Counted from the first letter of the stretch, positions 1 to 18,487 are shown. The stretch is 36,021 nt of DNA from Dehalococcoidia bacterium (GCA_034420915.1 DAOUKW010000077.1:1-36021), one strand, 5' to 3'. Numbers and translations are program-made. Notes: a model not told the origin generated them from the letters alone.

Positions 1-1383
1 GCGCTCATAGAACTCCCGCATCGCCGATGAGAACGCGACCAGTCCCATGACGTCGTACAGGTGGGTCAGGAAGTACTGGCCGAGGTGGTAACCGCAGGAT
101 TCCGCGTATTCACCGGGCTCCGCCAGGTCGGCAATGGTGGCAACGCCGTTGTTCACGCACCAGACCCTGCCCGCGTACTCATTGCCCTCGAACAGCGGCA
201 CCCCGCCTTCCCAGTCCTCGGAGCCGTCCCACGCCTGCCGGTAAGCCGTCACAAAGTTGGCGCCGCCCTCGAACAGCCAGTGCGGTCCGATCTCGAATGC
301 CAGGTGATAGTGGGCAACCTCGTGATAGATGAGGCCGGCGTGGGCTGTATCCGGCCAGTTACTGCCTGTGGACAGCACGATGGAGTCCACGAAATTCTTC
401 CCTCCGTATCCGTAGCCCTCGTAATTCTCCACGTTGACCTGGAGCATGATGATGTCCGTGACCGGGAACGGGCTGGCCATCACGCGCTCGGCGGCCAGCG
501 CCCCGTCCGCGGCGGCGGTGAGGATATCACCCGTTATCGCTTCGTGTCCGAAGGCCCAGAGGCCGACGGAGCCGCTCAGCGGCAGATCCACGGCGCGTGC
601 CTCGGTGAACCATTCTTCCAGCAGGTCGGTATAGATTGCGTCATCATTGGTGATCTTCGCCAGGACGATGATGAACGCCCGCTCCTCCAACGAGAGGCCG
701 TCGGCGAACCACTCCTGCACCTGCAGCCGTCTGAAGCTGTCCGGGTACTGCCACGACATGTCGCCGAGGGCGTAGAGGACATCGACATTGATCGTCCGCG
801 CCGGCTCCTCCACGCTGTGGGCGAACATCCGGCGCGCCAGGGCAGGGTCCCAATCGTAGAGATACTGGAGGCCGTAGACGGCGCTCGATTCCAGCGGGCC
901 GAGGCCGTCCCGGATCCACGGCGCGTTGGCAAGCTTCCGGCCAAGCTCGGCGTCCTTGAGCCAGACCTCGAGGATGGGCAGGACGGCAAGCGGGTAGGGC
1001 GGATTGTCGTACCACGGCAATAGCTGCGACAGGGCTGCGCGGGCCGCCTCCTCGGGCGTGGGCGCCGGAGTTTCCTTAGGATCAGAACCAGGCATTGCCG
1101 CCGGCTTGGGTGTCGGAGTTGGAGTTTCCTTTAGATCAGGATCAGGCATTGCCGTTGGCTTGGGTATCGGAGTGGCTGTGGCTTCTACAATTGTCTGAGC
1201 GGGAGAATACTGCGTGGGCGCGGGCGTTGGTATGTGAGACGGCGTCGAGGCAGGGGTCAGGTTTGGCGTCGCAGTCGGGATAATCTCAGTCGTTGGCGGC
1301 GGGGTGGGAGAGGGCGCGTCCCGAGCGCAGCCGCTCAGGATGACCAGCACAGCGAGGCTGAGCAGGATTGCCAGATGTCTCAT
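1..1383 (-). CDS. Secreted lipoprotein with MA-clan (gluzincin-like) zinc metallopeptidase domain; partial, C-terminus lies outside the window
   Basis: Absent from the supplied ORF track because it has no stop in the window. Reverse-strand ATG at 1383..1381 opens a frame that I translated without stops down to nt 1 (461 codons). N-terminus is MRHLAILLSLAVLVILSGC (lipobox LSGC), followed by a Pro/Thr-rich linker. HEVAH at 310..324 is followed by WLFEGGANF. Colinear similarity to the peptidase part of 9820..12804 (IDLPL.G.V.L.A.G; YHEMAH...EWLTEGAAEF; C.Y.LG..FLT.L......V..SA.RE.YE). The + strand ORF 61..1023 is its antisense shadow. Confidence 0.8.
   Translation of the reverse strand, partial: MRHLAILLSLAVLVILSGCARDAPSPTPPPTTEIIPTATPNLTPASTPSHIPTPAPTQYSPAQTIVEATATPIPKPTAMPDPDLKETPTPTPKPAAMPGSDPKETPAPTPEEAARAALSQLLPWYDNPPYPLAVLPILEVWLKDAELGRKLANAPWIRDGLGPLESSAVYGLQYLYDWDPALARRMFAHSVEEPARTINVDVLYALGDMSWQYPDSFRRLQVQEWFADGLSLEERAFIIVLAKITNDDAIYTDLLEEWFTEARAVDLPLSGSVGLWAFGHEAITGDILTAAADGALAAERVMASPFPVTDIIMLQVNVENYEGYGYGGKNFVDSIVLSTGSNWPDTAHAGLIYHEVAHYHLAFEIGPHWLFEGGANFVTAYRQAWDGSEDWEGGVPLFEGNEYAGRVWCVNNGVATIADLAEPGEYAESCGYHLGQYFLTHLYDVMGLVAFSSAMREFYER
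1067..1174. repeat. Tandem 2 x 54-nt in-frame duplication inside the Pro/Thr linker of the 1..1383 gene
   Basis: 1067..1120 and 1121..1174 align without gaps with only a few mismatches. On the minus strand they encode two 18-aa units (..TPIPKPTAMPDPDLKETP / TPTPKPAAMPGSDPKETP..). Confidence 0.8.
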
Positions 1384-1518
1384 CCGGGCATCCGCTTGCG
1401 GCAAGGCCGGCCACAGATGGTGACCTGTGCCAAGCATCTGCGGCACAGATAAAGGGAGAGAACTGACACGTTATTATCGCGCCGCGGTCATCGGCGTAAG
1501 CGCGGGCGGCTCACACTG

Positions 1519-1548
1519 GCAGCCCCCGTGTCGGGATGCGGGGGCTGC
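1519..1548. other. Perfect 10-bp stem, 10-nt loop GC-rich hairpin in a divergent intergenic region
   Basis: GCAGCCCCCG (1519..1528), loop TGTCGGGATG, CGGGGGCTGC (1539..1548). A weaker hairpin CTGTGCC/GGCACAG lies at 1425..1448. Confidence 0.6.
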
Positions 1549-1609
1549 GCAGGGCTAATGAGCGGGTGTGGAAACGGGTGTAAGTTGGGCGCTCAAAGGC
1601 GCAGCGGTT

Positions 1610-1623
1610 CTGAGACGTCTCAG
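1610..1623. promoter_or_regulatory. 14-bp perfect palindrome CTGAGACGTCTCAG (candidate operator)
   Basis: Exact inverted repeat read directly. It lies in the 448-bp gap between the divergently transcribed peptidase gene (start 1383) and sensor-regulator gene (start 1832 or 1886). Confidence 0.4.
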
Positions 1624-1758
1624 TCAAGGCGGTTGCCGCCGGATTTGACGTTGTTGGAGGCAAACGCTTTCGCAGTGCAAGGGCCAAAGAGGGCACCTCC
1701 CGACATTGCTACTGCGAACCAAGCTGCGTGGTACTATACCATTTAGATATAACCATTC

Positions 1759-1800
1759 TGTAACTATCTGACTGATTTTCTGTGACTTCTTGTAACTATC
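1759..1800 (+). promoter_or_regulatory. Direct repeats TGTAACTATC (x2) plus degenerate TGTGACTTCT in an AT-rich patch; candidate response-regulator binding site
   Basis: TGTAACTATC at 1759..1768 and 1791..1800, TGTGACTTCT at 1781..1790. The AT-rich stretch 1741..1820 stands out against the GC-rich surroundings. OmpR-family regulators bind direct repeats (established); the link to this site is inference. Confidence 0.35.
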
Positions 1801-1818
1801 AGGCAAATACAGCATAAT
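1790..1818 (+). promoter_or_regulatory. Sigma70-like promoter candidate for the sensor-regulator/LRR genes
   Basis: TTGTAA (1790..1795), 17-nt spacer, CATAAT (1813..1818). The -35 overlaps the second TGTAACTATC repeat. Confidence 0.4.
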
Positions 1819-1831
1819 TGCCCCCGCCAGC

Positions 1832-4246
1832 GTGGAATGCCGCGGACTGCACTGGTCGGACCAGGCAGCCAATCGGAGTGACGATTTGAGCCGACAGGAT
1901 GAGCGAGACCGAGAGAACGCGGCCCTCCGTGACCGCCTATCCCGCCTGAGCGAGGCCGGACTCCGCATCAACGAAGACCTGGACTTCGACACGGTGTTGC
2001 AAGAGGTGGTGGACGAGGCGCGATCTCTCACCTCCTCGCGCTACGGGGCGATCACCGTCTTTAATGAGGTTGGGCATATACCCGACTTCATCGTCTCCGG
2101 CTTGACCCGGGAGGAGCACCAGGGGTTTTGGGACATGCCGGAAGGGCCGGGATTCTTCGAATACCTCAGCAGCCTTGCCGAGCCCCTGCGGGTCCCGGAT
2201 ATCGAGGGCCACCTGAGAGAACTGAACATGCCTGAGTTCGTGCCCTCCGTACCGGTGACCTCCCTGCTGGTAGCCCCGATTCGCCACAGGGGCGTCGCGG
2301 TCGGCACCATCTATGTGGCTCACGGGGCGGATGGAAAGGAGTTCACGCAAGAGGACGAGGAGACCCTGGTTCTTTTTGCCTCGCAGGCGGCGATGGCCAT
2401 CGCCAACGCCCGCCGGCACCGGGAGGAGCAGCGGGCCAAGGCGGACCTGGAGACACTGATAGACACGTCTCCCGTTGGCGTGGTCGTCCTGGATGCGTTG
2501 ACGGGGGCCCCCAAGTCCTTCAATCGGGAAACCCGGAGGATCATCGACACCATACGGAATGCCGGGCAGTCACCCGAGCAGTTGTTGGAGGAGTTGACTT
2601 TCAGGCGGGCCGATGGACGGGAGGTCTCCCTGCGGGAGTTCCCGATGGCCGAGCTCCTCAGCACGGGAGAGACTGTACGGGCCGAGGAGATTGTCATGCG
2701 CGCCGCTGACGGGCGGAGCGTCACGGTACTACTCAACGCCACCCCCATCCTCTCCAAGGAAGATACGGTGGAGTCTGTCGTCGTCACGCTGCAGGACATG
2801 GCGGACGTGGAGGAACTGGAGCGGCTGCGGGCTGACTTCCTGGCGATGGTGAGCCACCAGCTGAGAACTCCTCTGACCTCTATCAAGGGCTCCGTCTCTA
2901 CGATTATGGATGCGGAGACGGACCTCGACCCTGCCGTGGTCCGCCAGTTCCTTCGGATCATCGAGGACCAGACCGATCACATGAACGCGCTGGTTGCAGA
3001 CCTGCTCGACGTGGCCCGTATCGAGACGGGAACGCTGCCGGTCAATCCGGAACCTACAGAGGTGGCCGTACTGGTGGATAGGGCACGCAGCGCCTTTGTC
3101 ACCGCAGGAGGCAGGAACAACCTCGCAATCGACGTTGACCCGAACCTGCCCCTGGTGATGGCAGACAGGCGGCGCATCGTCCAGGTGCTCAGCAATCTGC
3201 TGTTCAACGCGACCGATAACTCGTCAGAGTCATCCCTCATCAGGGTGACCGCTGTGTGGAATGGCGTTCACGTTGCGATGTCGGTGGCCGACGATGGGCG
3301 GGGCATCCCTGCGGAGAGGCTGCCGCACCTGTTTCGCAAGTTCTCTGCGACAAACTCCGAGGAGCATGGAGGGGACACGGGGCTTGGCCTCGCCATCTGT
3401 AAGGGCATAGTGGAAGCGCATGGGGGCCGCATCTGGGGCGAGAGCGACGGGCCGGGAATGGGGGCGCGTTTCACTTTCACCCTTCCATCTGTCGAAAACT
3501 CCGGAAGCGGCGCGGTCGACAGATCTTCCCCGACCTCAACGCAGCGTGAACTACGGGTGGAGGAGCGGGTGCGCGTTCTGGCCGTGGACGACGACCCCAA
3601 CGATCTCCGTTACATCCGCGACACACTTGCAAAGTCGGGCTACGAACCGATCGTCACCGGAGAGCCGGAGGAGGCGCTGCGCCTCGTGGAGAAGGGTAGG
3701 CCGGAGCTTGCGCTTCTGGATCTGATGCTCCCGGGAACGGACGGTATCGAGCTGATGAAGGAAATCCTCGATGTGGCCGATGTGCCGGTCATCTTCCTGT
3801 CTGCGTACGGACGGGAAGAACTGGTTGCCAGGGCATTCGACATGGGGGCCACGGATTATGTCGTAAAGCCGTTCTCCCCGACGGAACTCTCGGCGAGGAT
3901 CAGGGCAGCCCTGCGCAGACGGACGGCCGCAGAGCCGTCGGAGCCTTACGTGGTGGGCAACCTGACCATCGACTACACCGGGCGCAGGGTAACCCTTGCC
4001 GGAAATCCCGTCCATCTCACGCTGACTGAGTATCGCGTGCTGGGCGAACTCTCGGCCAATGCAGGGCAGGTGGTGACGTATGAGCGCCTTTTGGCTCGGG
4101 TCTGGGGTGCGAAGAACGCCGGGGACGTGAGGCCCATGCGCACCATCGTGAACAAAATCCGCCGCAAGCTGGGAGAGGACACCCAAAGGCCTGCTTATAT
4201 CTTCACCGAGCCCCGCGTGGGATACCGGATGCCGAGAGGGGAGTAG
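1832..4246 (+). CDS. Cytoplasmic hybrid sensor histidine kinase fused to a complete OmpR-family response regulator (GAF-PAS-HisKA-HATPase-REC-winged helix)
   Basis: GAF-like N-terminus (SSRYGAITVF...VAPIRHRGVAVGTIYV). PAS-like segment (LIDTSPVGVVVLD...). H-box FLAMVSHQLRTPLTSI. ATPase motifs (DDGRGIP, GDTGLGLAICKGIVEAHGGRIW). REC (VLAVDDDP...LALLDLMLPGTDG...VVKPF). OmpR-type wHTH (LTLTEYRVLGEL...RVGYRM). No hydrophobic TM segment. Start is uncertain: GTG 1832 per track, or TTG 1886 preceded by GGAG (1875..1878). Confidence 0.9.
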   Translation: MECRGLHWSDQAANRSDDLSRQDERDRENAALRDRLSRLSEAGLRINEDLDFDTVLQEVVDEARSLTSSRYGAITVFNEVGHIPDFIVSGLTREEHQGFWDMPEGPGFFEYLSSLAEPLRVPDIEGHLRELNMPEFVPSVPVTSLLVAPIRHRGVAVGTIYVAHGADGKEFTQEDEETLVLFASQAAMAIANARRHREEQRAKADLETLIDTSPVGVVVLDALTGAPKSFNRETRRIIDTIRNAGQSPEQLLEELTFRRADGREVSLREFPMAELLSTGETVRAEEIVMRAADGRSVTVLLNATPILSKEDTVESVVVTLQDMADVEELERLRADFLAMVSHQLRTPLTSIKGSVSTIMDAETDLDPAVVRQFLRIIEDQTDHMNALVADLLDVARIETGTLPVNPEPTEVAVLVDRARSAFVTAGGRNNLAIDVDPNLPLVMADRRRIVQVLSNLLFNATDNSSESSLIRVTAVWNGVHVAMSVADDGRGIPAERLPHLFRKFSATNSEEHGGDTGLGLAICKGIVEAHGGRIWGESDGPGMGARFTFTLPSVENSGSGAVDRSSPTSTQRELRVEERVRVLAVDDDPNDLRYIRDTLAKSGYEPIVTGEPEEALRLVEKGRPELALLDLMLPGTDGIELMKEILDVADVPVIFLSAYGREELVARAFDMGATDYVVKPFSPTELSARIRAALRRRTAAEPSEPYVVGNLTIDYTGRRVTLAGNPVHLTLTEYRVLGELSANAGQVVTYERLLARVWGAKNAGDVRPMRTIVNKIRRKLGEDTQRPAYIFTEPRVGYRMPRGE

Positions 4247-4300
4247 GCTGCGAACAATGAAACCTGTTGTGCCCGGCGGCGATGATCCGTCCAACAGATT

Positions 4301-6949: not shown

Positions 6950-9381
6950 GCATGGGCTTCTTTACAGATAAACGACGTCTTCAGCAGCTGGGAACCGTTG
7001 CCCTTTTCACACTCAGTGCCTTTGTGCTGACGGTTGCCTGCGACCGTATCGAGCAAGAGACAGCCATTGTCACTCCCGGATCGACAGCCGGGCCAATTCC
7101 GGGCTTGGCGCTGCCCACCTCAACGCCAATTCCAACGCCCAGGGTCTTACCCACTCCAACTCCAACCAGTCTTCCCACACCCACTCCCTTGCCGACCGCC
7201 ACGCCGGTGCCGTCAATCGAAACGGACCGCGCCGCTCTTGTTGCCTTATTCGAGGCGACGGGGGGTGAAAACTGGCTGCACAAAGAGAACTGGCTGAGTG
7301 ACGAGCCAATGGGAACCTGGTCCGGTGTTACAACCCACGGGGACGGGCGGGTTGGCAGACTTTATCTGCAGGAGTACGGATTGTCCGGCGAGCTCCCACC
7401 CGAGATTGGAAACCTCACCAGGCTCAGAGGAATGTGGCTTGGCTCCAACCAACTGACTGGGCGGATTCCAGGCAGACTCGGCAATCTCACAGAGTTGGAG
7501 ACACTGGACCTTGAAGGCAACGAGTTGACCGGTCCAATCCCGCAGAACCTTGCCAATCTAACTGGGCTGATCCACCTCAGGCTTGCCGGGAACCGACTGG
7601 TAGGGCGCATTCCCCCTGATCTTGCCTTCCTGTCCGAGATCGAGCTGTTGGATCTCGCCGACAACGAACTGAGGGGGCCAATTCCGCTTGCGCTTGGCAA
7701 CATGACCAAGATGGAAGACCTGCTGCTTGGAGGCAATACACTGAGCGGCCCAATCCCACCCAATCTGGTCAACCTGAGCGACTTACGAGTGCTGGATCTG
7801 TCCGACAATGAGTTCACTGGCTCAATACCGACCGAGCTAGTCCATCTGACCAACCTTGAGACGCTGGACGTGTCCCAAAACATGTTGACGGGGTCGATAC
7901 CGATTGAGCTTACAAATATGCTCGCTCTGCACGTCCTCAATCTCTCGCAGAACAGACTGTCCGGCCCGATCCCTCCCGAATTCCAAAACCTCCTCAACCT
8001 CAGAAAACTGCACCTGGCTACCAATCAGTTGACAGGCTCCGTGCCTACGCAACTGGCAAACCTCTCCAACCTGAACGTTCTGGATCTCTCAAACAACTTG
8101 CTGACGGGCGAGTTCCCTTCGGAAATCGAGAAACTCAGAGACCTGCATGTCCTTAATCTCGACGGCAACAGCATCGCCGGGGTTCCAGTATCCGATCGAC
8201 CGGCGCTCATCGCGTTCTATCACGCAACGGGCGGGGATAACTGGCACAACAAGAGCAACTGGCTCAGCGATACTCCGATTGGGACATGGCATGGCGTGAA
8301 GAGTGACGGGGGGCGGCGTGTTATTGAACTACGGCTGGGCAACAACAACCTTGTGGGCCACATCCCCCCTGAGATCGGCAACCTGGCGCAGATGCAGTTT
8401 CTCAGTTTGACAGCCAATCAACTGAGCGGTGTCCTTCCTCCGGAATTCGGCAATCTGTCCAGCCTTGAGACCGCGTTTCTATTTCGCAACCAGCTGACAA
8501 CTCCAATCCCGAGTGAAGTGGCAAATCTCACGAGCCTGGAATTGCTGGACCTGTCACAGAATCCGTTGGATGACCTATTCCCCGTCGCATTGACGAGGCT
8601 GACAGGACTGGAAAAACTGACGCTTTCGAACTGCGGGCTGCGCGGTCGCATTCCGGCTGTCATCGGCAACATGGAGAACCTAAGGGAGTTGGAGCTTTCA
8701 CACAACAGCATTACGAGCCCTATCCCGGAGTCAATTACAGATCTCGATAGATTGTCGAATCTTGATCTGAGGGATAATGCACTTAGCGGTTCATTCCCGC
8801 GAGAAGTGGTTGAAATTGGGAGTCTAAGGTCGCTTGACCTTAGAAATAACGAGCTGACCGGCCCCATTCCGTCCTCACTGGCTCAATTGGAAGACATGTC
8901 CTATCTGTCTCTCGGCGGGAACGAGTTAACCGGACCGATCCCGCCCGAAATTGCCCGGATGAGCAGCCTTGGATGGCTCCTCCTTTCGGGTAATGAATTC
9001 TCTGGCTCCATTCCGTCCTGGATAGGAAGCCTGGAGGAGTTGTTGTATTTGGACCTCTCCCACAATCGACTAACCGGCCCTATCCCGACCGAGCTCGGCA
9101 ATCTCGAGAAGCTGCTCTATATGTCCCTGCAGGGCAATGAATTAAGCGGACCAATACCGGCCGAGTTCAGGAATCTGAAGGGCCTGCAGAGCTTTATCAT
9201 TTCTGACAACGAGATTACCGGCTCGATCCCCCCATGGATTGGCGAGATGCCAGGTATGTGGCGTATATGGGTTGATGGGAACAGGCTTGAGGGCTGCATT
9301 CCGAAACCACTCATGTACCTGAGCGAATTGGCTGTGAATCCGCAGCGAGGGCAGCAGACTGAATTGGAGTTCTGCGGGTAG
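6946..9381 (+). CDS. Secreted lipoprotein-like LRR protein with two N-cap+LRR modules (about 12 + 14 repeats)
   Basis: ATGA start/stop overlap with the upstream gene (6946..6949). Signal ..FTLSAFVLTVAC, then Pro/Thr linker. Cap 1 is DRAALVALFEATGGENWLHKENWLSDEPMGTWSGVTT (from 7225). Cap 2 is DRPALIAFYHATGGDNWHNKSNWLSDTPIGTWHGVKS (8191..8337). C-terminal cap NRLEGCIP...LEFCG. Confidence 0.9.
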   Translation: MSMGFFTDKRRLQQLGTVALFTLSAFVLTVACDRIEQETAIVTPGSTAGPIPGLALPTSTPIPTPRVLPTPTPTSLPTPTPLPTATPVPSIETDRAALVALFEATGGENWLHKENWLSDEPMGTWSGVTTHGDGRVGRLYLQEYGLSGELPPEIGNLTRLRGMWLGSNQLTGRIPGRLGNLTELETLDLEGNELTGPIPQNLANLTGLIHLRLAGNRLVGRIPPDLAFLSEIELLDLADNELRGPIPLALGNMTKMEDLLLGGNTLSGPIPPNLVNLSDLRVLDLSDNEFTGSIPTELVHLTNLETLDVSQNMLTGSIPIELTNMLALHVLNLSQNRLSGPIPPEFQNLLNLRKLHLATNQLTGSVPTQLANLSNLNVLDLSNNLLTGEFPSEIEKLRDLHVLNLDGNSIAGVPVSDRPALIAFYHATGGDNWHNKSNWLSDTPIGTWHGVKSDGGRRVIELRLGNNNLVGHIPPEIGNLAQMQFLSLTANQLSGVLPPEFGNLSSLETAFLFRNQLTTPIPSEVANLTSLELLDLSQNPLDDLFPVALTRLTGLEKLTLSNCGLRGRIPAVIGNMENLRELELSHNSITSPIPESITDLDRLSNLDLRDNALSGSFPREVVEIGSLRSLDLRNNELTGPIPSSLAQLEDMSYLSLGGNELTGPIPPEIARMSSLGWLLLSGNEFSGSIPSWIGSLEELLYLDLSHNRLTGPIPTELGNLEKLLYMSLQGNELSGPIPAEFRNLKGLQSFIISDNEITGSIPPWIGEMPGMWRIWVDGNRLEGCIPKPLMYLSELAVNPQRGQQTELEFCG

Positions 9382-9733
9382 ATCCTGACGATTACGCGTC
9401 CCCGACAGCTTACGAGAGCCTGGCTTCACTTAGTCCCTGGTCTCGTGGTGAGTTTGAGAAAGCCAAACCGGAGCAAGGAGTACCCCTGGGCGAACTGTAT
9501 TGCGAACCTTCCTATTGAAGGTTGAGTTGAAAGTGGCGTTTGGTAAGAGGAAACGGGGCGGGTAGGAGCGTAACGTCTTTGCGGGTCTAGTACTGTAGGA
9601 CAGGCCCACGGATGATTCTCAAGGGCATAGTGACCACCAGCTCAGGTCTTCCCGACTGAGAATTGCAGCACGAATCTGTATGGCGGTCTCATATAGGCGG
9701 GTGATTCTCCTTGGATATCTGCACATGCAAACG

Positions 9734-9821
9734 CTAGAGACTCTTCATTGAACTGGTAAGTGCCGAATCACACTCGCAAGGCGCCAATGTGTTTGCTCCA
9801 AACGAGAGCATTGCTGCAACT
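9734..9821 (-). repeat. Copy 1 of an 88-nt conserved non-coding element; abuts and overlaps the stop codon of the 9820..12804 gene
   Basis: Ungapped alignment with 13385..13472 gives 69/88 identical positions by hand count, including the identical 26-mer ctggtaagtgccgaatcacactc-context, gtttgctc and ctgcaact. Confidence 0.75.
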
Positions 9822-12804
9822 AGGAGTCGCAGAAAGGCAGGCCGAGGCGAACGAGATCGTTGTCAGCTTGGTTATTATCGCGCTCGCCCGTGATGGCGAG
9901 CAACTTGGCCGGTATGCATCCCCTTAGCCGGTTGTGGCCAAGCCACAGCACTTCCAGCTTGGCGAGATTGCCCAGTTCGGAGGGTATCATCCCGCTCAAC
10001 TGGTTTCCGAAGAGCGACAGGTGCGTTAGGTTGGCGAGGCCGCCCAGTTCTGGCGGGATGGGCCCGCTCAACCGGTTCGTGGAGAGTAACAGATGCGTCA
10101 GGTTGGCAAGGCTGCCCAGTTCCGTCGGTATCGTCCCGCTCAGCTTGTTACCACTAAGGTTCAGGTCTTCCAAATGAATGAGATCGCCCAGCCTGGTCGG
10201 TATTTCGCTAGTCAACTGATTGTGTGAAAGTCTCAGAGATTGCAGCTTGGCGAGATTGCCCAATTCCGCCGGTATCTCTCCACTCAACTGGTTAGACCAA
10301 AGCCCCAGCGCTTGCAATTTGGCAAGACTGCCAAGCTCCGCCGGTATCTCCCCTGTCAACTCGTTGTTACCGAGAGACAGGAATTGCAGCTTGGCGAGAT
10401 TGCCCAGTTCCGTCGGTATCGTCCCGCTCAACTGATTATCGCGGAGCGACAGATGCCTCAGGTCAGCGAGGCTCCCCAGTTCTGTCGGTATCGGTCCGCT
10501 CAACTGATTCCCCCCCAGGTCTAGTGCAACGACAGAACCGTCACAGTCGGTGAGTACCCCGTGCCATTGGTCCAGGGGACTGTCGCTCAACCAGTTCTGA
10601 CTGTTCTTCCACGACGCGCCGTTGGTGGCATGATGGAGCGCGACTAATGCGTTCCTCACTTCACTTGAGGGCGCGTCCTTGGGTGGTGGGGTATAGCCCT
10701 GTATCGGCCTGCCATGAAGACAGTTATAGAGAAAGCGATAGTCATCCCGTTTTGATTGCGGAGTGTTCTTCAAGAACGTCTGGTAAATCTTGTCCTCCGT
10801 CGCCTCTGTGCTCCTGCTGGTCTCGTACAATTCCCGCAGAGCGGACAATACCACCTCGTGCCCCAAGATGTGGTGCAATCCGGTCAGGAAGTGAAGGCCC
10901 AAGCGATATGGGCAGGTATTAACTCGCCCATCCTCCACTACACTCAATCCACTCGTGATCCACTCCTGCACATTCATCGTGCTCACGGAAAAGCAATCGT
11001 CGGATATCCGTACCTTTGAAGAGATGTACTCCTCATAGAAAGAGATTTCCAGATCAGCCTCTTTCAGAACGGCGTAGCTCATCAAGAATTCCGCCGCGCC
11101 CTCGGTAAGCCATTCCGGAGTACGTGCTCCTCCTCCACCAAAATAGAAGTGTGCCATCTCGTGATACAGTACCCTCTTGCGGGAGGCTGATTTGATTGCC
11201 GCGCGTGATCCGTTATTCACTCCAGCCGCATCACTTTCGGCTATCTGGAATTCGCTTTCCAGCAAAAGGATGACATCGGACTTCGGCCACGGAACTTCCA
11301 TGAATTCCTCCAAGTGCTCGGTGGCGAAAACCATAGCGTCCAGCACAGTATGCAGCTCGTCCTCCGACCGCCCGACCGCGAAGAGGTCCACTTCGCCCGC
11401 CAGGGGAAGATCGATCGTCTCCGACCACACCACGCCGCCCCGCACCATCTCATCGAAGAACTCCTGCGAAACTATGGCGCTTCCTATCGTGACGATCAGC
11501 GCAGCCTCCTCGGCGGTCAGCCCGTCCTCCACCCACGGCTCTCGCATGAGCCGCTGCGCCCGGCTGGGATGGTTGGAGCGAATCTTCCACAGACTGGACA
11601 TGGTGTCTTGCATGAGCTGCCCGGTCTGATCCGGAATGGTCGTCACCAGCACCGCCTCGTCAAGGCGGGTACTGGCTAGGCGGGAGACCAGACTGAGCAC
11701 ATCCAACTCATCGTGCGTGACCCCGTCGGAAAGCCACAGTGAGCCCGCTACTCGCTGAGACATCGACCGGTCTATTTGGGCGAGCTCCCCAATGCGGAAC
11801 AGTGCCCGCCGTTCGGCGTTGGTGGCGCCGTCCGCGATCCACGGCAGGTTATCCGTATTGAACTCCGAAACCCTTGCAGTCACTACAGCGGAGCAGTTGT
11901 TGGTCGTGTCAGACTCACCCGATACCGGCTCAGCGCATGCGCCATAGTAGTACACGCCCGGAGTGGGCGGCGCATGCGTAAGGATTGATTCGGCGCCACT
12001 ATCAGATGGATTCAGTCTGTGAATCTGGTCCGTCCCCACTTCAGTATCTGTGGACGTGATAGTCGCGTCAGTAGAACGGTAGTAGCGCAGCGTGGTGGGA
12101 CCAGATACCCATGCACCCTGGTTCCGCACGGAGAACCTCAGTACCAGGGTCTGACCTAGCATTGGGTTGCTATCACTCACTGCTGGCTCGACCACCGTCA
12201 GATCGGGTGGAGGTGGAAGCACGGTCACGGCGACGGAGGAGGAGCAGTTGTTCGTCCTATTGGACTCGTGGGGTACGGGCGCCACGCAGGCACCATAGTA
12301 GTATGTGCCCGGCGAAGGCGGCGTAACCGTGAGTATCGACTCAGTGCTGCTTGCGGATGCCTCCAGCCTTGCCACCAGGATCGAGTCCACCTCGTCATCT
12401 TCGGTCGAGATGGTTGAGTCGGTGGAGCGGTAGTAACGTAGCGTGGTGGGGCTCGATGCCCCGGGCCCCTCGTTCCGCACAGTGGCGCTCAGCGTGAAGG
12501 ACTGGCCTCCCATAAAGTCTCTGCCGCTTACTGTTAGCAGATCTACCACCAGGTCGGGCGGTGACGGTGTCGGCGTGGGGGTCGGTGATGGCGTTGCTGT
12601 GGGGGTTGGTGATGGTATAGGAGTGTGCGCCGGGGTCGAAGTGAGTGCAGGAGTTGCCGTCGGCGCGGGTGAAGGGGTGGCGGTGGGCATCGGCGTTGAT
12701 GTTGCCTCGTCGGAGCATCCGGCGACGAGCAGGATCAGTAGTGCCGTGCCAACAACAGCCAGACTCAGCTTGGGTCTTGACATTCCGAATGCCTCACTGG
12801 ACAT
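9820..12804 (-). CDS. Lipoprotein: 2 x CARDB-like domains + MA-clan HExxH metallopeptidase + N-capped plant-type LRR module (9 repeats)
   Basis: Signal MSRPKLSLAVVGTALLILLVAGC. The more likely start is ATG 12783, preceded by GAGG; the track start is 12804. Pro/Thr linker follows. Two paralogous about 110-aa units (PDL.V......GQ...L...VRN.G...S..TTLRYYRSTD..I...D.EV......YYYGAC..PV..ES..TNNCS). HEMAH at 11149..11163, then EWLTEGAAEF. Cap VRNALVALHHATNGASWKNSQNWLSDSPLDQWHGVLTD. 9 LRRs. C-terminal cap NRLRGCIP...LPFCDS. Confidence 0.9.
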   Translation of the reverse strand: MSSEAFGMSRPKLSLAVVGTALLILLVAGCSDEATSTPMPTATPSPAPTATPALTSTPAHTPIPSPTPTATPSPTPTPTPSPPDLVVDLLTVSGRDFMGGQSFTLSATVRNEGPGASSPTTLRYYRSTDSTISTEDDEVDSILVARLEASASSTESILTVTPPSPGTYYYGACVAPVPHESNRTNNCSSSVAVTVLPPPPDLTVVEPAVSDSNPMLGQTLVLRFSVRNQGAWVSGPTTLRYYRSTDATITSTDTEVGTDQIHRLNPSDSGAESILTHAPPTPGVYYYGACAEPVSGESDTTNNCSAVVTARVSEFNTDNLPWIADGATNAERRALFRIGELAQIDRSMSQRVAGSLWLSDGVTHDELDVLSLVSRLASTRLDEAVLVTTIPDQTGQLMQDTMSSLWKIRSNHPSRAQRLMREPWVEDGLTAEEAALIVTIGSAIVSQEFFDEMVRGGVVWSETIDLPLAGEVDLFAVGRSEDELHTVLDAMVFATEHLEEFMEVPWPKSDVILLLESEFQIAESDAAGVNNGSRAAIKSASRKRVLYHEMAHFYFGGGGARTPEWLTEGAAEFLMSYAVLKEADLEISFYEEYISSKVRISDDCFSVSTMNVQEWITSGLSVVEDGRVNTCPYRLGLHFLTGLHHILGHEVVLSALRELYETSRSTEATEDKIYQTFLKNTPQSKRDDYRFLYNCLHGRPIQGYTPPPKDAPSSEVRNALVALHHATNGASWKNSQNWLSDSPLDQWHGVLTDCDGSVVALDLGGNQLSGPIPTELGSLADLRHLSLRDNQLSGTIPTELGNLAKLQFLSLGNNELTGEIPAELGSLAKLQALGLWSNQLSGEIPAELGNLAKLQSLRLSHNQLTSEIPTRLGDLIHLEDLNLSGNKLSGTIPTELGSLANLTHLLLSTNRLSGPIPPELGGLANLTHLSLFGNQLSGMIPSELGNLAKLEVLWLGHNRLRGCIPAKLLAITGERDNNQADNDLVRLGLPFCDS

Positions 12805-13043
12805 GATGAAGTCCGAGGATTTGTGGAAGAATTCGCTTCACACAAGTTACTAATCCGGCGCCCATCACAGGGCTATGCAGTGCCCTCACCGTCCGGATCC
12901 ATGTTCCAGTCAGCGTAGACGCCCGTGCGGACCGTGGGCGACTGTAACTCGCCGGTTGTCTTGGCGACACCCCCAACGCTCGTGGGCTGGCCGGAGGTCT
13001 AAGTGTCCAGGTATGGCTGGAGGTGATGACGCCACGATTCTCC

Positions 13044-13346
13044 TCAGTCAGCCCAAAACCACGTCTTGAAGGATGCGGTGCAAGACGCCATTCCCAACAT
13101 CACGCCCACTCCAAGGCCGAAGAATACGCCGCGAGCGGAGCGTCCTCTTGCCATTAGTGCCCCGCCGATAATCGTGGCGATGGTCGAGCAGGCAATCATA
13201 AGAAAGATGATTAGCAGGAAGGCGAAATAATATGGGGCCTCGAAAGCCAAAGCAGCTTCTGAGGGGTCAATGGACGACAATAAGAGTACGGGCGCGATGA
13301 CAAGTGGCACCGCAGTAAGAACCAGTGCCATGCTGAACGTACGCAT
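13044..13346 (-). CDS. Small hydrophobic membrane protein (about 3 TM), function unknown
   Basis: 100-aa ORF with three hydrophobic stretches. AGGGAG lies a few nt upstream of ATG 13346. No recognisable family. Confidence 0.5.
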   Translation of the reverse strand: MRTFSMALVLTAVPLVIAPVLLLSSIDPSEAALAFEAPYYFAFLLIIFLMIACSTIATIIGGALMARGRSARGVFFGLGVGVMLGMASCTASFKTWFWAD

Positions 13347-13384
13347 GCCGACTCCCTGTCAGTGAGTTCAATGCCCAAATAACA

Positions 13385-13472
13385 CTAGGCATTCTGCATC
13401 GATCTGGTAAGTGCCGAATCACACTCTCTAGGCAACACTTTGTTTGCTCTGAGAGAGAGTGTTTCTGCAACT
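13385..13472 (-). repeat. Copy 2 of the 88-nt conserved element, upstream of the small membrane protein gene
   Basis: See 9734..9821. Contains a 9-bp perfect stem ACACTCTCT (13421..13429) / AGAGAGTGT (13454..13462). Confidence 0.75.
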
Positions 13473-13480
13473 TTTCACTC

Positions 13481-13509
13481 TTGCTGACATAAACGCAAAT
13501 GGCTAGATT
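13481..13509 (+). promoter_or_regulatory. Possible promoter of the NarL-type two-component operon
   Basis: TTGCTG (13481..13486), 17-nt spacer, TAGATT (13504..13509), about 70 nt upstream of ATG 13577. Weak hexamers. Confidence 0.25.
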
Positions 13510-13576
13510 AGTGGCCAACTACACACTGTCGTGACCGCCAAACACTCTACGCGTTCACACACTTACAGGAGAGAAC

Positions 13577-14854
13577 ATGCTTCAGGCACCTCGCCAAACC
13601 AGGGGCCTGTACTCGATGAAGGAAGTGTTCGGTGCAGTGCGGGCGCGGGTTTTTCAGATGCTCTGGCTCGACCCGGACGAGGTATCGTACGCAGCCAATA
13701 TTGCGGTGTGGGTTCGCTGGTTCCTCTGGGTCGGCGCCATAACCACTCTTGCCCACGAATCCGAGTTCACTTATTTCCAATCCCTACGCCAGACCATTTC
13801 GGTCATGCTCATGCACGTCTCAGTGGCCACCCTCAACGCCCATGTGCATTACCGTCTGCTTACCAAGCGTCGAGTGACGTGGCGTCACATGATTGTCCTC
13901 AGCGCGTTGGATCTAGCACTGATCACGGTCACCGTCGTCGATCTGGGGTACGACTCAATCTGGTTCGTCGGCTACTATCCCGCGCTTGCCATCTTCGCTG
14001 CCGTCTTCACTTCCGCTCTACTGAATCTCACCTGGACCACGGTCGCCTCCTCCATTTATGTCGGCGTGATTCTAACCGACGGGTCGGGTCTCACCTTCGA
14101 TGTGATCGATGAGAAGGCGCTCTATATAAGAGTGATTGCGATGTTCGGGGTAGTTCTTGTGATCAACTTCATCACTCGGTTCCAACGGCGCAGGGCGAGG
14201 GAGGCGATCGAAAGGGAAGGGGCGCTGCAACGAGAGCGGATCGAGCTTTCCCAGGCGATTCACGATACGGCCGCGCAGACGGCGTACATGATCGGCCTGG
14301 GCATAGACGCAGCCAAGCAGGTTGCCGGAAACTCGAACGAGGAGCTCACCTCCAGACTGGAAGCGACATCGCAGCTTTGCAAGACTGCCGTCTGGCAGCT
14401 GAGGCGCCCAATCGACATGGGTCGCATCTTCGATGGCCGGGAACTGGGCTGGACCCTGGACTCGCACGTTGCCACGTTCAGATCCATCACATCGATAGAG
14501 GCGGAGCTGAGGCAGAACGGTGCAGAGCCGCCACTTTCGGTTGAGGCAAAGAGTCGGCTGTTTACCATAGCGCATAACGCACTTGCCAACGCCTTCCGTC
14601 ATGCCGGGGCGAGCCGCGTGTTGGTCGACCTCGACTTCAGACGGGATGAACTCAGACTGTCGGTGTCGGACGACGGGGCGGGGCTTCCGGATGACTACGA
14701 GGAACGGGGCCACGGCTTCGCAAACATGCGGGCGGACGCTGAGCGTCTGGGCGGACGCCTTGTCGTTGAGGCCAGAGGCTTGACCGGGGGCGCGAGAGTG
14801 ACTTGTTTGGTGCCATTGGAACGTGGTGGAAAGGGGAGATACGTTGTCAACTGA
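13577..14854 (+). CDS. Polytopic membrane sensor histidine kinase, HisKA_3 (NarX/DesK-like) class
   Basis: AGGAGAG 4 nt upstream of the ATG. N-terminal half has multiple hydrophobic helices and no large loop. H-box LSQAIHDTAAQTAY. ATPase motifs NALANAFRHA, DDGAGLP, GHGFANM. Confidence 0.85.
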   Translation: MLQAPRQTRGLYSMKEVFGAVRARVFQMLWLDPDEVSYAANIAVWVRWFLWVGAITTLAHESEFTYFQSLRQTISVMLMHVSVATLNAHVHYRLLTKRRVTWRHMIVLSALDLALITVTVVDLGYDSIWFVGYYPALAIFAAVFTSALLNLTWTTVASSIYVGVILTDGSGLTFDVIDEKALYIRVIAMFGVVLVINFITRFQRRRAREAIEREGALQRERIELSQAIHDTAAQTAYMIGLGIDAAKQVAGNSNEELTSRLEATSQLCKTAVWQLRRPIDMGRIFDGRELGWTLDSHVATFRSITSIEAELRQNGAEPPLSVEAKSRLFTIAHNALANAFRHAGASRVLVDLDFRRDELRLSVSDDGAGLPDDYEERGHGFANMRADAERLGGRLVVEARGLTGGARVTCLVPLERGGKGRYVVN

Positions 14855-15497: not shown

Positions 15498-15680
15498 CCA
15501 CGCAAGCCGGTTTTGAGATAATGCAGCTTGGCCAGTGCGTGTATCACAGTGAAGGATTACCGCCGCAAGCTACGGAACAGGAAGTGGGCGCTTCAAGTGC
15601 ATTTGCCCTGTTCGTCAGTACCCTGACCAATGGCACGTAGGCCACTATTCGCCGCCGTTCCCGTTATTGGCATAACGAAA

Positions 15681-15752
15681 TACCCCTGCCGGGACTCGAA
15701 CCCGGGCCACCAGCTCCGGAGGCTGGTGCTCTATCCACTGAGCTACAGGGGC
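15681..15752 (-). tRNA. tRNA-Arg, anticodon CCG
   Basis: Hand-folded cloverleaf: acceptor GCCCCTG/CAGGGGT (G1-U72 wobble), D arm GCTC-AGTGGATA-GAGC, anticodon arm CCAGC-CTCCGGA-GCTGG, 4-nt variable loop, T arm CCGGG-TTCGAGT-CCCGG, discriminator A. No encoded CCA. Confidence 0.9.
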
Positions 15753-15896
15753 ATGATTCGTCCTGCCGACGCTTCATCATCATACTCTCCACGGCTCAAT
15801 ATCTGAGCCAGGAGGAGGACACATCCTTAGCCAATCGACCTCTCGCTGGGGATTGCTCATTCGCCATGTAGTAACGCATGAGCACAGGCTGATTTG

Positions 15897-17219: not shown

Positions 17220-17286
17220 TATTTCCTCCTGGCTGAATACGGCGCAATGGCCACATTAGTATAAGGGATACGCATAGGACCAAGCC

Positions 17287-17691: not shown

Positions 17692-17721
17692 CGTCCGCCC
17701 CTCTGTTAGACTGACCAGGCC

Positions 17722-17985: not shown

Positions 17986-18023
17986 GGGCGATATGAGAGC
18001 GTGGCAGAGAGGGCGGTGACACA

Positions 18024-18380: not shown

Positions 18381-18386
18381 CCCCCG

Positions 18387-18420: not shown

Positions 18421-18487
18421 TGCGCAGCGCAACCCTGCAGCGCCCAATCCTCTCATTCTGGTGAACGCCGGAATCCATCCGGTCTGC

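What the first reader, a model, noticed from the sequence alone, without database searches (positions are those of the whole stretch)
1..13472. Candidate undescribed envelope system: fused sensor-regulator + plant-type LRR surface proteins + LRR-tethered and free HExxH metallopeptidases
Seen: five adjacent genes form a coherent set, and four of them are extracytoplasmic. These four (1..1383, 4301..6949, 6946..9381, 9820..12804) share a signal peptide ending in Cys and a long Pro/Thr linker. Three share the same cysteine-poor N-cap (AL.AL/F..ATGG.NW....NWLSD.P.G.W.GV), 24-residue L..L..L.L..N.LtG.IP.ElGnL repeats, and a C-terminal N.L.GC.P....FC cap. Two share a paralogous HExxH...EG.A.F peptidase domain. 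A TM-less kinase fused to a full DNA-binding response regulator sits 54 nt upstream of the LRR genes, on the same strand. Established: the 24-residue G.IP repeat is the 'plant-specific' LRR class of plant receptor kinases and PGIPs. Bacteroides hybrid two-component systems, also kinase+regulator in one chain, control adjacent surface-lipoprotein nutrient loci. Inference: the LRR solenoids may act as ligand- or prey-protein-binding surfaces tethered on long linkers. The peptidases may process what is bound, or process the LRR proteins themselves. The fused regulator may control the locus. I know of no characterised bacterial system with this combination.
Basis: partly seen in the sequence, partly recalled or inferred. 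Interest (0 to 1): 0.85.

Follow-up and report, generated by a model that had tools for sequence, protein, structure and literature searches.

The report
LRR surface proteins and peptidases island
A Dehalococcoidia genome, probably from a sponge microbiome, carries an 11-kb accessory island next to a tRNA gene that encodes membrane-tethered plant-type leucine-rich-repeat proteins and an uncatalogued zinc peptidase fused to such repeats; the sequence description is accurate, but the five genes are not one conserved system run by the fused regulator.

Summary
The sequence observation holds. All five genes, their domains, the lipoprotein-type leaders, the Pro/Thr linkers, the 24-residue plant-type LRRs with shared caps and the paralogous HExxH domains are present as described.

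The "one coherent system under the fused regulator" reading does not hold. In a close relative (L065), the g2 orthologue is followed directly by tRNA-Arg and the same housekeeping genes.

Comparative genomics instead shows two separate links:
- CARDB-peptidase-LRR genes like g5 pair with this HisKA_3/NarL two-component system (6/21 loci vs 0/38).
- Free peptidases like g1 pair with fused GAF-PAS-kinase-regulator paralogues (8/13 vs 1/46), but from a different clade than the window's g2.

The peptidase is an M1-like gluzincin with no Pfam model. About 1,300 cluster representatives exist, almost all seen in Dehalococcoidia or Acidimicrobiia MAGs, and about 40% of a diverse sample are fused to LRRs.

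Best reading: eukaryotic-like surface proteins of sponge-associated bacteria that bind and cleave external, probably host-derived, proteins. This is a new variant of a known kind, of moderate interest.

The parts
1..1383 (-). g1: lipoprotein-type leader (…LSGC), about 95-aa Pro/Thr linker, then a free M1-like HExxH…EG…Y peptidase domain. Truncated by the window edge; 506 aa in L001.
   Evidence: Orthologues at 64-78% identity in 12 loci (a 13th counted in the g1 set, L049, is 46%). No Pfam hit.
1384..1831 (.). Divergent g1/g2 intergenic region. It is partly conserved in relatives L065 and L066, so it is a likely shared promoter or operator region.
   Evidence: blastn of window 1439-1831 to L066 and 1474-1799 to L065. 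One sigma-70-like match at 1790-1818, which is no more than chance would give.
1832..4246 (+). g2: cytoplasmic one-chain two-component protein, GAF-PAS-HisKA-HATPase_c-REC-Trans_reg_C. It is a resident (core-position) gene and a member of clade II of a multi-copy family.
4279..15676 (.). 11.4-kb accessory island, absent from close relative L065. It lies between the g2 3' end and the 3' end of tRNA-Arg. GC is 56.5% against 60.8% for the rest of the window.
   Evidence: blastn and alignment of boundaries, tRNA calls (63, 64), composition.
4301..6949 (+). g3: tethered LRR-only protein with leader, Pro/Thr linker, N-cap, about 29 plant-type 24-residue LRRs and a C-cap with 2 Cys.
   Evidence: The closest homologues are only 30-43% identical.
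6946..9381 (+). g4: tethered LRR-only protein with two LRR domains, each with its own N-cap (around aa 95 and aa 418). It overlaps g3 by 4 nt.
9730..9821 (.). Copy A of a 92-nt direct repeat, immediately 3' of g5.
   Evidence: Found only in this organism.
9823..10671 (-). g5 C-terminal LRR module: N-cap, 9 repeats and C-cap.
10690..11868 (-). g5 peptidase domain: three helical 'PW..DG.t..E' repeats followed by an M1-like catalytic core. H548, E549, H552, E568 and Y633 are invariant in the family.
11875..12558 (-). g5 CARDB x2.
   Evidence: PF07705, 67.4 bits, cut-off 22.7.
12559..12804 (-). g5 leader (…VAGC lipobox) and Pro/Thr linker.
   Evidence: Every family homologue called with a complete N-terminus except P0119 has a lipobox plus a PT linker.
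13044..13346 (-). ORF100: small hydrophobic (about 3 TM) protein upstream of g5 on the same strand. It has a GGGAG 6-7 nt before its ATG and is not conserved elsewhere.
13381..13472 (.). Copy B of the 92-nt direct repeat (78% identical to copy A).
13577..14854 (+). HK3: membrane HisKA_3 histidine kinase with at least 3 TM segments, divergent from g5.
   Evidence: Orthologues at 46-51% identity lie next to g5-type genes in L002, L004, L006, L007, L008, L010 and L021.
14823..15497 (+). RR3: REC-GerE (NarL-family) response regulator, overlapping HK3.
15680..15753 (-). tRNA-Arg(CCG). Its 3' end abuts the island.
   Evidence: The same tRNA is at L065 12541-12614.

Best explanation
**What is there (shown)**
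- The region is a mosaic, not a single system.
- A resident fused sensor-regulator gene (g2) sits beside a variable lipoprotein gene. In this genome that gene is the free peptidase g1.
- An 11.4-kb accessory island lies between g2 and tRNA-Arg.
- The island carries two LRR-only surface proteins (g3, g4). It also carries a CARDB / M1-like metallopeptidase / LRR protein (g5), a small membrane ORF, and a membrane HisKA_3/NarL two-component system.

**How it most likely works (inferred)**
- All four secreted proteins are acylated at the leader Cys. They are held on the outer face of the cytoplasmic membrane of a monoderm Dehalococcoidia cell.
- The Pro/Thr linkers project them through the envelope.
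- The plant-type LRR solenoids bind external proteins, most plausibly sponge host or matrix proteins.
- In g5 the LRR acts as a targeting module for the zinc peptidase on the same chain. That peptidase is probably an endopeptidase, because the M1 GxMEN exopeptidase motif is missing.
- g5 expression is probably set by the adjacent NarL-type system.
- g1 expression is probably set by the adjacent fused regulator.
- g3-g4 may simply be read through from g2, because the island starts only about 22 nt before the g3 ATG.
For: **Domains:**

**Peptidase fold and catalytic residues**
- AlphaFold model: pLDDT 88.9.
- Foldseek best hits are ERAP1, IRAP and the D. radiodurans M1 peptidase (E 5e-6, probability 1.0).
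- In the profile alignment, HELAH, WLxEG and CxY align with ERAP1 HELAH, WLNEG and the Tyr of its SYDKG segment. I identify that Tyr as the catalytic Tyr438 from memory.
- H, E, H, E and Y are invariant or near-invariant in 23-111 homologues.

**Fusion recurrence**
- More than 20 full-length g5 homologues.
- 22 of 53 diverse family members carry LRRs.
- Other bacterial plant-type LRR proteins are fused to trypsin-like, reprolysin, M10 and M66 peptidases.

**Island**
- Relative L065 lacks window 4279-15676, while both flanks align at 80-91% nt identity.
- tRNA-Arg lies at the junction.
- GC and GC3 are lower in the island.

**Regulator links**
- Orthologues of the HK3/RR3 pair lie next to g5-type genes in 6/21 loci against 0/38 (p = 1e-3).
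- g2-family genes lie next to g1 orthologues in 8/13 loci against 1/46 (p = 5e-6).

**Lipoprotein leader:** a lipobox plus PT linker is present in every g5 homologue that was called with a complete N-terminus except P0119, which has a non-lipoprotein signal peptide.

**Taxon:** GlyRS is in a 90% identity cluster with Dehalococcoidia and Chloroflexota proteins.

**Habitat**
- Homologous loci include the MAGs COS3_bin_3 and APA_bin_18. These prefixes match host species in the sponge MAG study PMC8163846 (Coscinoderma matthewsi, Aplysina aerophoba).
- PMC11706023 lists an APA_bin MAG of that dataset as an A. aerophoba symbiont.
- LRR eukaryotic-like proteins are a recognised trait of sponge Chloroflexi (PMC6306507).
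Against: - No expression, localisation, activity or ligand data exist.
- The sponge origin of the window's own sample (SAMN17524325) could not be verified.
- The lipoboxes of g3 (GTAC) and g4 (TVAC) are atypical.
- The island has no integrase and no detectable att repeat. "Insertion here" versus "deletion in the relative" is therefore not formally resolved.
- The g5/NarL pairing is present in only about a third of g5-type loci.
- The window's g2 is a different paralogue clade from the regulators linked to g1 elsewhere.
- The Foldseek TM-score normalised to the query is only 0.38-0.47, because the N-terminal helical domain has no counterpart in M1 enzymes.
Confidence: 0.6

Rival explanations
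1. g1-g5 form one functional envelope system, and g2 is the dedicated regulator of the LRR and peptidase genes.
For: - g2 lies 54 nt upstream of g3 on the same strand, with no predicted terminator between them.
- g3 and g4 overlap by 4 nt.
- g2-family genes are significantly associated with g1 orthologues.
- L036 has two LRR genes, a g2-type gene and a g1 orthologue within 11 kb.
Against: - Close relative L065 keeps g2 in the same position but lacks g3, g4 and g5.
- Relative L066 keeps g2 with a different lipoprotein.
- The closest g2 homologues flank a sterol-like gene cluster.
- No other locus has all five gene types.
- g5 is on the opposite strand and has its own conserved two-component partner.
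Confidence: 0.12
2. Nutrient foraging rather than host interaction. The tethered LRRs and peptidases capture and digest proteinaceous dissolved or particulate organic matter, to feed a heterotrophic Dehalococcoidia cell.
For: - Sponge Chloroflexi are inferred to be degraders of dissolved organic matter (PMC6306507).
- Sponge archaeal symbionts carry large exported metalloproteases with adhesive repeats, which have been read as a sign of mixotrophy (10.1101/527234).
- The proteins are surface-tethered enzymes with binding modules.
Against: - No peptide or amino-acid transporter lies in or next to the island.
- LRR solenoids usually recognise specific protein ligands rather than bulk substrate.
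- Neighbouring loci are rich in other eukaryotic-like adhesion domains: cadherin, fn3 and Calx-beta.
Confidence: 0.2
3. No functional coupling at all. This is a recombination hot spot that collects unrelated fast-evolving surface-protein genes, and the shared leaders, linkers and caps reflect only cassette shuffling.
For: - Apart from the peptidase and LRR genes themselves, only the two regulator types recur in more than 7 of the 62 sequences compared (59 scan loci, L001, L002 and the window).
- g3 has no close homologue.
- The L066 neighbour of g2 shares g1's leader but has an unrelated mature domain.
- A 92-nt repeat flanks g5.
Against: - The covalent peptidase-LRR fusion recurs in about 40% of a diverse family sample.
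- The two regulator associations are statistically non-random.
Confidence: 0.08

Closest known systems
Eukaryotic-like repeat proteins (LRR, ankyrin, TPR, fn3, cadherin) of marine sponge symbionts
   Same: - LRR proteins are encoded in MAGs of sponge-associated Chloroflexota and Acidimicrobiia, and are variable between strains.
- They are thought to mediate host interaction (PMC6306507, PMC11706023, PMC8163846).
- Neighbouring loci carry cadherin, fn3 and Calx-beta giants.
   Different: - Here the LRRs are specifically the plant-type 24-residue class with own caps.
- They are lipoprotein-tethered via Pro/Thr linkers.
- In g5 they are covalently joined to a peptidase and paired with a two-component system.
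- None of these features was found described in the papers searched.
Plant LRR receptor-kinase / PGIP ectodomains (plant-specific LRR class)
   Same: - 24-residue repeat L..L..L.L..N.L.G.IP..L.
- Plant ectodomains are the top solved-structure matches (GSO1, FLS2, ERL1, PEPR1).
- The W..GV part of the N-cap aligns with the start of the plant ectodomains.
   Different: - There is no kinase and no TM helix.
- The N-cap lacks the Cys pair and gives no Pfam LRRNT_2 hit.
- The C-cap is G-C-x-P…F-C.
- The gene context is bacterial.
Bacterial plant-type LRR proteins: Xanthomonas XopAC/XopAE/XopL effectors and Leptospira LIC LRR proteins
   Same: The same repeat class gives the best NCBIfam hits (XopAC 1e-85, XopAE 1e-60, LIC_11051 4e-45). 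All are below the family cut-offs. PDB 4u08 LIC11098 matches at 4e-56.
   Different: - These proteins are not type III effectors: they have lipoprotein-type leaders and there is no T3SS context.
- The fused domains are different.
M1 aminopeptidases (ERAP1, IRAP, the two-domain D. radiodurans M1 peptidase)
   Same: - Thermolysin-like catalytic core.
- HExxH, a downstream Glu zinc ligand, and a Tyr 85 residues after the first His. That Tyr aligns with the ERAP1 SYDKG Tyr, which I take to be catalytic Tyr438.
   Different: - The His-to-Glu spacer is 15 residues rather than 18.
- The GxMEN motif is not conserved.
- There is no N-terminal beta-sandwich domain. Three helical 'PW..DG' repeats take its place.
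- The Pfam M1 score is below the gathering cut-off.
Bacteroides hybrid two-component systems (HTCS)
   Same: Kinase, receiver and DNA-binding output are on one polypeptide, next to surface-protein genes.
   Different: - g2 has no TM or periplasmic sensor. It has cytoplasmic GAF-PAS input and an OmpR-type winged helix, not AraC.
- The phylum is different.
- The neighbours vary between relatives.
tRNA-linked genomic islands
   Same: - The insertion lies at the 3' end of a tRNA gene.
- It is absent from a close relative.
- Its GC is lower.
- It carries accessory surface and regulatory genes.
   Different: There is no integrase, no flanking direct repeat of the tRNA end, and no mobility genes.

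Membership tests
Plant-specific (PS) LRR class | Tandem 24-residue repeats with consensus LxxLxxLxLxxNxLxGxIPxxLxx | tested here: met
   The spacing is 24 in 49 of 56 intervals, and the consensus is L..L..LdLS.N.LtG.IPpELg. Plant LRR-RK ectodomains are the top PDB hits.
Plant-specific (PS) LRR class | LRRNT_2-type N-terminal cap with a conserved Cys pair | tested here: not met
   The four N-cap segments give no PF08263 hit at E <= 10. There is no Cys in the caps of g3 or g4, and a single Cys (C754) in g5.
Peptidase family M1 | HExxH plus a downstream Glu zinc ligand and a catalytic Tyr on a thermolysin-like fold | tested here: met
   H548, E549, H552, E568 and Y633 are invariant. They align with ERAP1 HELAH, NEG and the Tyr of SYDKG. 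Foldseek probability 1.0 to M1 enzymes. The His-Glu spacer is 15 residues, not 18.
Peptidase family M1 | GxMEN exopeptidase motif | tested here: not met
   The segment aligned to ERAP1 GAMEN is not conserved (IAES, LGR-, LGSP, -STF, EGY-).
Peptidase family M1 | N-terminal beta-sandwich domain preceding the catalytic domain; Pfam PF01433 above its gathering score | tested here: not met
   The model shows an all-helical N-terminal 145 residues. PF01433 scores 22.5 bits against a cut-off of 27.7. Only 1 of 53 family members hits it.
Bacterial lipoproteins | Signal peptide ending in a lipobox [LVI][ASTVI][GAS]C | tested here: inconclusive
   g1 (LSGC) and g5 (VAGC) fit. g3 (GTAC) and g4 (TVAC) are atypical at position -3. 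g5 homologues have LAGC, LTGC or LAAC.
Bacterial lipoproteins | Lgt/LspA processing and acylation | not testable with these tools
   The genome outside the window is not available, and there is no biochemistry.
Bacteroides-type hybrid two-component system | Periplasmic sensor + TM + HisKA/HATPase + REC + AraC HTH on one chain | tested here: not met
   There is no TM segment. The input is GAF-PAS and the output is Trans_reg_C.
Sponge-symbiont eukaryotic-like proteins | A eukaryote-typical repeat domain encoded by a sponge-associated bacterium | tested here: inconclusive
   The repeat type is met. Homologous loci include the MAGs COS3_bin_3 and APA_bin_18, whose prefixes match host species of the sponge MAG study PMC8163846. 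The origin of the window's own sample could not be verified.
Sponge-symbiont eukaryotic-like proteins | Enrichment in symbionts relative to free-living relatives | not tested
   This needs whole-genome sets with habitat metadata.
tRNA-linked genomic island | Adjacent to a tRNA 3' end, absent in a close relative, deviating composition | tested here: met
tRNA-linked genomic island | Integrase and flanking att direct repeats | tested here: not met
   No integrase domain occurs among the island genes. No tRNA-end repeat is found at the left boundary.
NarL-family two-component system | HisKA_3 + HATPase_c kinase with a REC + GerE regulator | tested here: met
   Pfam hits are above cut-offs. No NCBIfam equivalog cut-off is reached.

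The most novel reading that the evidence does not exclude
The uncatalogued 'PW..DG-repeat + M1-like' peptidase family, about 40% of which is fused to plant-type LRRs, could be a dedicated host-protein-targeting surface protease system of sponge symbionts. In this reading the LRR solenoid selects specific sponge proteins (for example recognition or matrix proteins) for cleavage. Specificity is diversified by cassette exchange behind a conserved lipoprotein leader and by island transfer, including transfer across phyla into Acidimicrobiia. Expression is gated by dedicated two-component regulators.
Probability: 0.2. Interest if true: 0.7.

Novelty: new variant of a known kind. Interest (0 to 1): 0.45.

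Why it matters
- How the very abundant Chloroflexota symbionts of sponges interact with their host is largely unknown. LRR "eukaryotic-like proteins" are counted in many genome surveys but have no assigned mechanism.
- This locus points to a concrete, testable arrangement. It consists of membrane-tethered plant-type LRR modules, often on the same chain as a zinc peptidase that current domain libraries do not recognise, each with a nearby two-component regulator.
- It gives a defined protein family (about 1,300 cluster representatives), predicted catalytic residues to mutate, and candidate regulators and operator regions to test.
- It also shows that such genes sit in a strain-variable island, which matters for interpreting symbiont pangenomes.

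Tried and rejected
1. Exact look-up of g2 with its GTG start found nothing. The source contig was reached through g5 (P0001) instead.
2. Pfam and NCBIfam on g1 gave no hit at all. Peptidase_MA_2 was expected but not found.
3. Pfam LRRNT_2 on the four N-caps gave no hit.
The single domain was used instead.
5. A Pfam scan of 111 family members exceeded the residue limit. It was repeated with 53.
6. A literature search for the BioSample SAMN17524325 found nothing, so the sample's habitat stays unverified.
7. I looked for att-like repeats or a partial tRNA copy at the left island boundary and found none.
8. The 92-nt repeat flanking g5 was tested for RNA structure (z-scores -1.7 to +1.3) and against Rfam (only the tRNA matched). 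There is no evidence that it is a structured RNA.
9. Promoter and terminator scans gave no more matches than shuffled sequence. Nothing is concluded from them beyond "no terminator predicted between g2 and g3".
10. The idea that the L066 neighbour of g2 is an S24/S26-type peptidase, from a GSMEPT…GDIIVF motif read by eye, was not confirmed by Pfam.
11. A full-length g5 structure prediction to look for LRR-peptidase docking was not run. The tool returns no inter-domain error estimates, so the result could not have been judged.


Full report
**1. Observation check**

g1 (1-1383) and g5 (9820-12804) are on the minus strand. g2, g3 and g4 are on the plus strand.

- *g2.* Pfam gives GAF, PAS, HisKA, HATPase_c, Response_reg and Trans_reg_C, all above gathering scores. 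It has no hydrophobic 19-mer, so it is a soluble one-chain two-component protein.
- *Leaders and linkers.* g1, g3, g4 and g5 each have a single N-terminal hydrophobic segment ending in Cys. This is followed by 52-95 residues with 27-33% Pro and 13-29% Thr.
- *LRRs.* The spacing is 24 residues in 49 of 56 intervals, with consensus L..L..LdLS.N.LtG.IPpELg. The best solved-structure matches of g3 are plant receptor-kinase ectodomains (GSO1 1e-161, FLS2 3e-121). The N-cap occurs four times, because g4 holds two LRR domains. The G-C-x-P…F-C C-cap closes all three proteins.
- *N-cap caveat.* The N-cap gives no Pfam LRRNT_2 hit.
- *Peptidase domains.* Those of g1 and g5 are paralogous: 25% identity over 386 residues, E 4e-34.
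- *Spacing.* The g2 stop lies 54 nt before the g3 start, and g3 and g4 overlap by 4 nt.

The description is accurate. Three things were missed:
- a membrane HisKA_3 kinase (13577-14854) and a NarL-type regulator (14823-15497) divergent from g5;
- a small 3-TM ORF (13044-13346);
- tRNA-Arg(CCG) at 15680-15753.

**2. The peptidase domain**

Neither g1 nor the g5 middle domain reaches any Pfam or NCBIfam cut-off. The only signal is Peptidase_M1 at 22.5 bits against a cut-off of 27.7.

An AlphaFold model built on 24 sequences is confident (pLDDT 88.9, pTM 0.87). It shows about 145 N-terminal helical residues, made of three 'PW..DG.t..E' repeats, followed by an alpha/beta catalytic core.

Foldseek places the core with M1 enzymes: ERAP1, IRAP, ERAP2 and the two-domain Deinococcus M1 peptidase (E 5e-6 and upward, probability 1.0, TM 0.38-0.47 on the query).

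A profile of the family aligns HELAH, WLxEG and CxY with ERAP1 HELAH, WLNEG and the Tyr of its SYDKG segment, which I take to be catalytic Tyr438. These residues (H548, E549, H552, E568 and Y633 in g5) are invariant in 23 homologues and near-invariant in 111.

The segment aligned to the M1 GxMEN exopeptidase motif is not conserved. I therefore infer an endopeptidase, not an aminopeptidase.

The family is small. It has 1,320 representatives at E <= 1e-3 among 1.84 billion clustered proteins. In a diverse sample of 53 members, 22 carry LRRs, 4 PPC, 3 CARDB and 3 Big_12 domains. Only one touches the M1 model. The peptidase-LRR fusion is thus a recurrent property of an uncatalogued family, not a peculiarity of g5.

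**3. Where it occurs**

- A scan of one genome per species with the domain alignment gave 59 loci. 55 are titled Dehalococcoidia, Chloroflexota or Tepidiformaceae. Three are Acidimicrobiia (including two 'Ca. Aldehydirespirator') and one is labelled only 'bacterium'.
- The window's GlyRS is in a 90% identity cluster with proteins named Dehalococcoidia or Chloroflexota.
- Two loci are from MAGs named COS3_bin_3 and APA_bin_18. These prefixes match host species of the sponge MAG study of Coscinoderma matthewsi and Aplysina aerophoba (PMC8163846). PMC11706023 lists an APA_bin MAG of that dataset as an A. aerophoba symbiont.
- LRR eukaryotic-like proteins are a recognised feature of sponge Chloroflexi (PMC6306507).
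- The window's own BioSample could not be traced. The sponge habitat is an inference.

**4. Synteny test**

I searched six-frame ORFs of all loci with the window's domains, and clustered all neighbouring ORFs. No locus other than the window's own duplicate assembly (L001) has all five gene types. Apart from the peptidase and LRR genes themselves, only two neighbour families recur in more than 7 of the 62 sequences compared.

*(A) g5-type genes and the NarL-type pair.*
- Orthologues of HK3 (46-51% identity, including the membrane sensor part) and RR3 (46-59%) lie beside or within 6.5 kb of g5-type genes. This holds in L004, L006, L007, L008, L010 and L021, and also in L002.
- That is 6 of 21 loci against 0 of 38 other loci (Fisher p = 1e-3).

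*(B) g1 orthologues and g2-family regulators.*
- g1 orthologues (64-78% identity in 12 of the 13 loci counted; L049 is 46%) have a g2-family fused regulator within 10 kb in 8 of 13 loci, against 1 of 46 (p = 5e-6).
- Four regulators sit directly upstream on the same strand, and one is divergent as in the window.
- A tree of the regulators shows that the g1-linked ones form their own clade: 70-81% identical to each other, 58-60% to the window's g2.
- The window's g2 groups at 73-88% with copies that have other neighbours.

*The g2 family is large and multi-copy.*
- More than 120 clusters at 73-80% identity have the same seven-domain architecture, and several contigs carry two copies.
- The three closest homologues examined sit next to squalene epoxidase, a squalene/oxidosqualene cyclase, a GPP34-P450 fusion and an MMPL transporter. 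There are no peptidase or LRR genes near them.

**5. The decisive comparison**

Contig CAYOPL010000012.1 (L065) is from a close relative.
- Its g2 orthologue is 78% identical at the protein level.
- That gene is followed by tRNA-Arg(CCG), the Na+/H+ exchanger, UPF0102, two zinc-ribbon genes, a trypsin-like gene, GlyRS, a Metallophos-GNAT gene, MoaDE and COX2/COX1. This is the order on the right of the window.
- blastn aligns window 1878-4273 with L065 9993-12392 (79.6%), and window 15678-25575 with L065 12539-22364 (84-91%). Nothing aligns in between.
- The boundary alignment puts the break about 30 nt after the g2 stop and exactly at the tRNA 3' end.

Window 4279-15676 (g3, g4, g5, ORF100, HK3 and RR3) is therefore an 11.4-kb block absent from the relative.
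- Its GC is 56.5% against 60.8% for the rest of the window. GC3 of g3 and g4 is 0.64-0.65, against 0.67-0.82 in the flanking genes.
- It has no integrase and no att repeat, so a deletion in the relative cannot be formally excluded.

g1 is also not conserved.
- In L065 the space upstream of g2 holds a fibronectin-III-rich protein and three unknown genes.
- In L066, from the same study, the divergent neighbour of g2 is a 396-aa protein. Its leader and Pro/Thr linker match g1 (MRHLAILLSLA…C, 76% nt identity over the 5' end), but its mature domain is unrelated.

**6. What it most likely is and does**

*Shown:* a resident fused regulator with a variable lipoprotein partner, next to a tRNA-linked accessory island. 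The island carries tethered plant-type LRR proteins, an LRR-tethered M1-like peptidase and a NarL-type two-component system.

*Inferred:*
- The proteins are acylated and displayed on long linkers.
- The LRRs bind external proteins.
- In g5 the LRR targets the peptidase on the same chain.
- HK3/RR3 control g5.
- The fused regulator controls its divergent lipoprotein gene.
- g3-g4 may be expressed by read-through from g2, because only about 22 nt of island sequence precede the g3 ATG and no terminator is predicted.

Protease plus LRR is a recurrent bacterial design. Many of g3's best hits are plant-type LRRs fused to Trypsin_2/SH3, reprolysin, M10 or M66 domains. A sponge archaeal symbiont has an expressed giant metalloprotease with adhesive repeats (10.1101/527234).

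Whether the substrates are host proteins or general proteinaceous food is open. I favour host or matrix proteins because of the eukaryotic-like adhesion genes in related loci and the lack of any linked transporter.

**7. Comparison with known systems, and novelty**

- The LRRs belong to the plant-specific repeat class but fail the LRRNT_2 cap test.
- The peptidase works like an M1-type gluzincin but fails three M1 membership features: GxMEN, the N-terminal beta domain and the Pfam score.
- g2 resembles Bacteroides hybrid two-component systems only in being a single chain.
- The block fits a tRNA-linked island in position, absence from a relative and composition, but not in mobility genes.
- The general class, eukaryotic-like LRR proteins of sponge symbionts, is known. 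Three things are new: the specific uncatalogued peptidase family, its frequent LRR fusion, and its two regulator associations.

I rate it a new variant of a known kind, interest 0.45.

**8. Limits**

- The 59 loci were retrieved through two short peptide patterns and 10-kb flanks. The sampling therefore favours family members that keep those motifs and misses more distant partners.
- Neighbour detection used phmmer on stop-to-stop ORFs.
- Taxon labels are those of the record titles.
- No expression or biochemical data are available.

Noticed in passing
window 9730-9821 and 13381-13472: A 92-nt direct repeat (78% identical, with an exact 23-nt core CTGGTAAGTGCCGAATCACACTC) brackets g5 plus the small ORF. 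Copy A starts inside the g5 stop codon. It is found only in this organism among the 66 loci. It has no Rfam match and no significant fold. It may be a recombination scar or a duplicated 3' UTR.
   Followed up: partly
L062 12992-21122; L063 1913-9679; L064 1958-9757: The closest homologues of g2 (78-80% identity) sit beside a sterol-like gene set: squalene epoxidase, a squalene/oxidosqualene cyclase, a GPP34-cytochrome P450 fusion and an MMPL/sterol-sensing transporter. GPP34 was recently reported as a sponge-symbiosis-associated family (PMC11706023).
   Followed up: no
L037, L038 (Ca. Aldehydirespirator), L050 (Acidimicrobiia), around 9100-11150 in each: g1 orthologues at 65-77% identity occur on complete chromosomes or large contigs labelled Acidimicrobiia (Actinomycetota). 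That is as close as the orthologues in Dehalococcoidia and suggests transfer between phyla sharing a habitat. These copies have no g2-type neighbour.
   Followed up: partly
L066 8376-9566 (-): The divergent neighbour of the g2 orthologue has the same leader and Pro/Thr linker as g1 but an unrelated 300-aa mature domain. That domain carries a GSMEPT…GDIIVF motif, reminiscent of S24/S26 peptidases, but has no Pfam hit. It looks like cassette exchange behind a conserved lipoprotein leader.
   Followed up: partly
L016, L017, L018 (MAG CBDCQN01, contigs 1 and 3): Three nearly identical copies of a peptidase-LRR gene lie in one genome, two of them followed by a large LRR-only gene on the opposite strand. 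This points to recent duplication of the module.
   Followed up: no
L024, L026, L028, L039, L055: Tandem arrays of two to four paralogous peptidase genes of this family without LRRs. Some family members hold up to 12 matched stretches, apparently extra 'PW..DG' helical repeats.
   Followed up: no
window 13044-13346 (-): A 100-aa ORF upstream of g5 has a GGGAG 6-7 nt before its ATG and about three hydrophobic helices. It was called as a gene in the ENA assembly. It has no Pfam hit and is not conserved in other loci.
   Followed up: partly
window 28785-30689 (+) and 22655-23461 (-): Two fused housekeeping genes: CtaA (COX15) joined to CtaB (UbiA-type heme O synthase) in one 634-aa ORF inside a caa3 oxidase cluster, and MoaD (ThiS-like) joined to MoaE.
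   Followed up: no
L002 1-5365 and 13866-17567; L066 16692-22406 and 1-5419: Loci related to g5 and g2 carry giant Calx-beta/fn3/SWM-repeat and cadherin proteins, and a large PKS with a methyltransferase domain. This is in keeping with a symbiont genome rich in eukaryotic-like adhesion domains.
   Followed up: no
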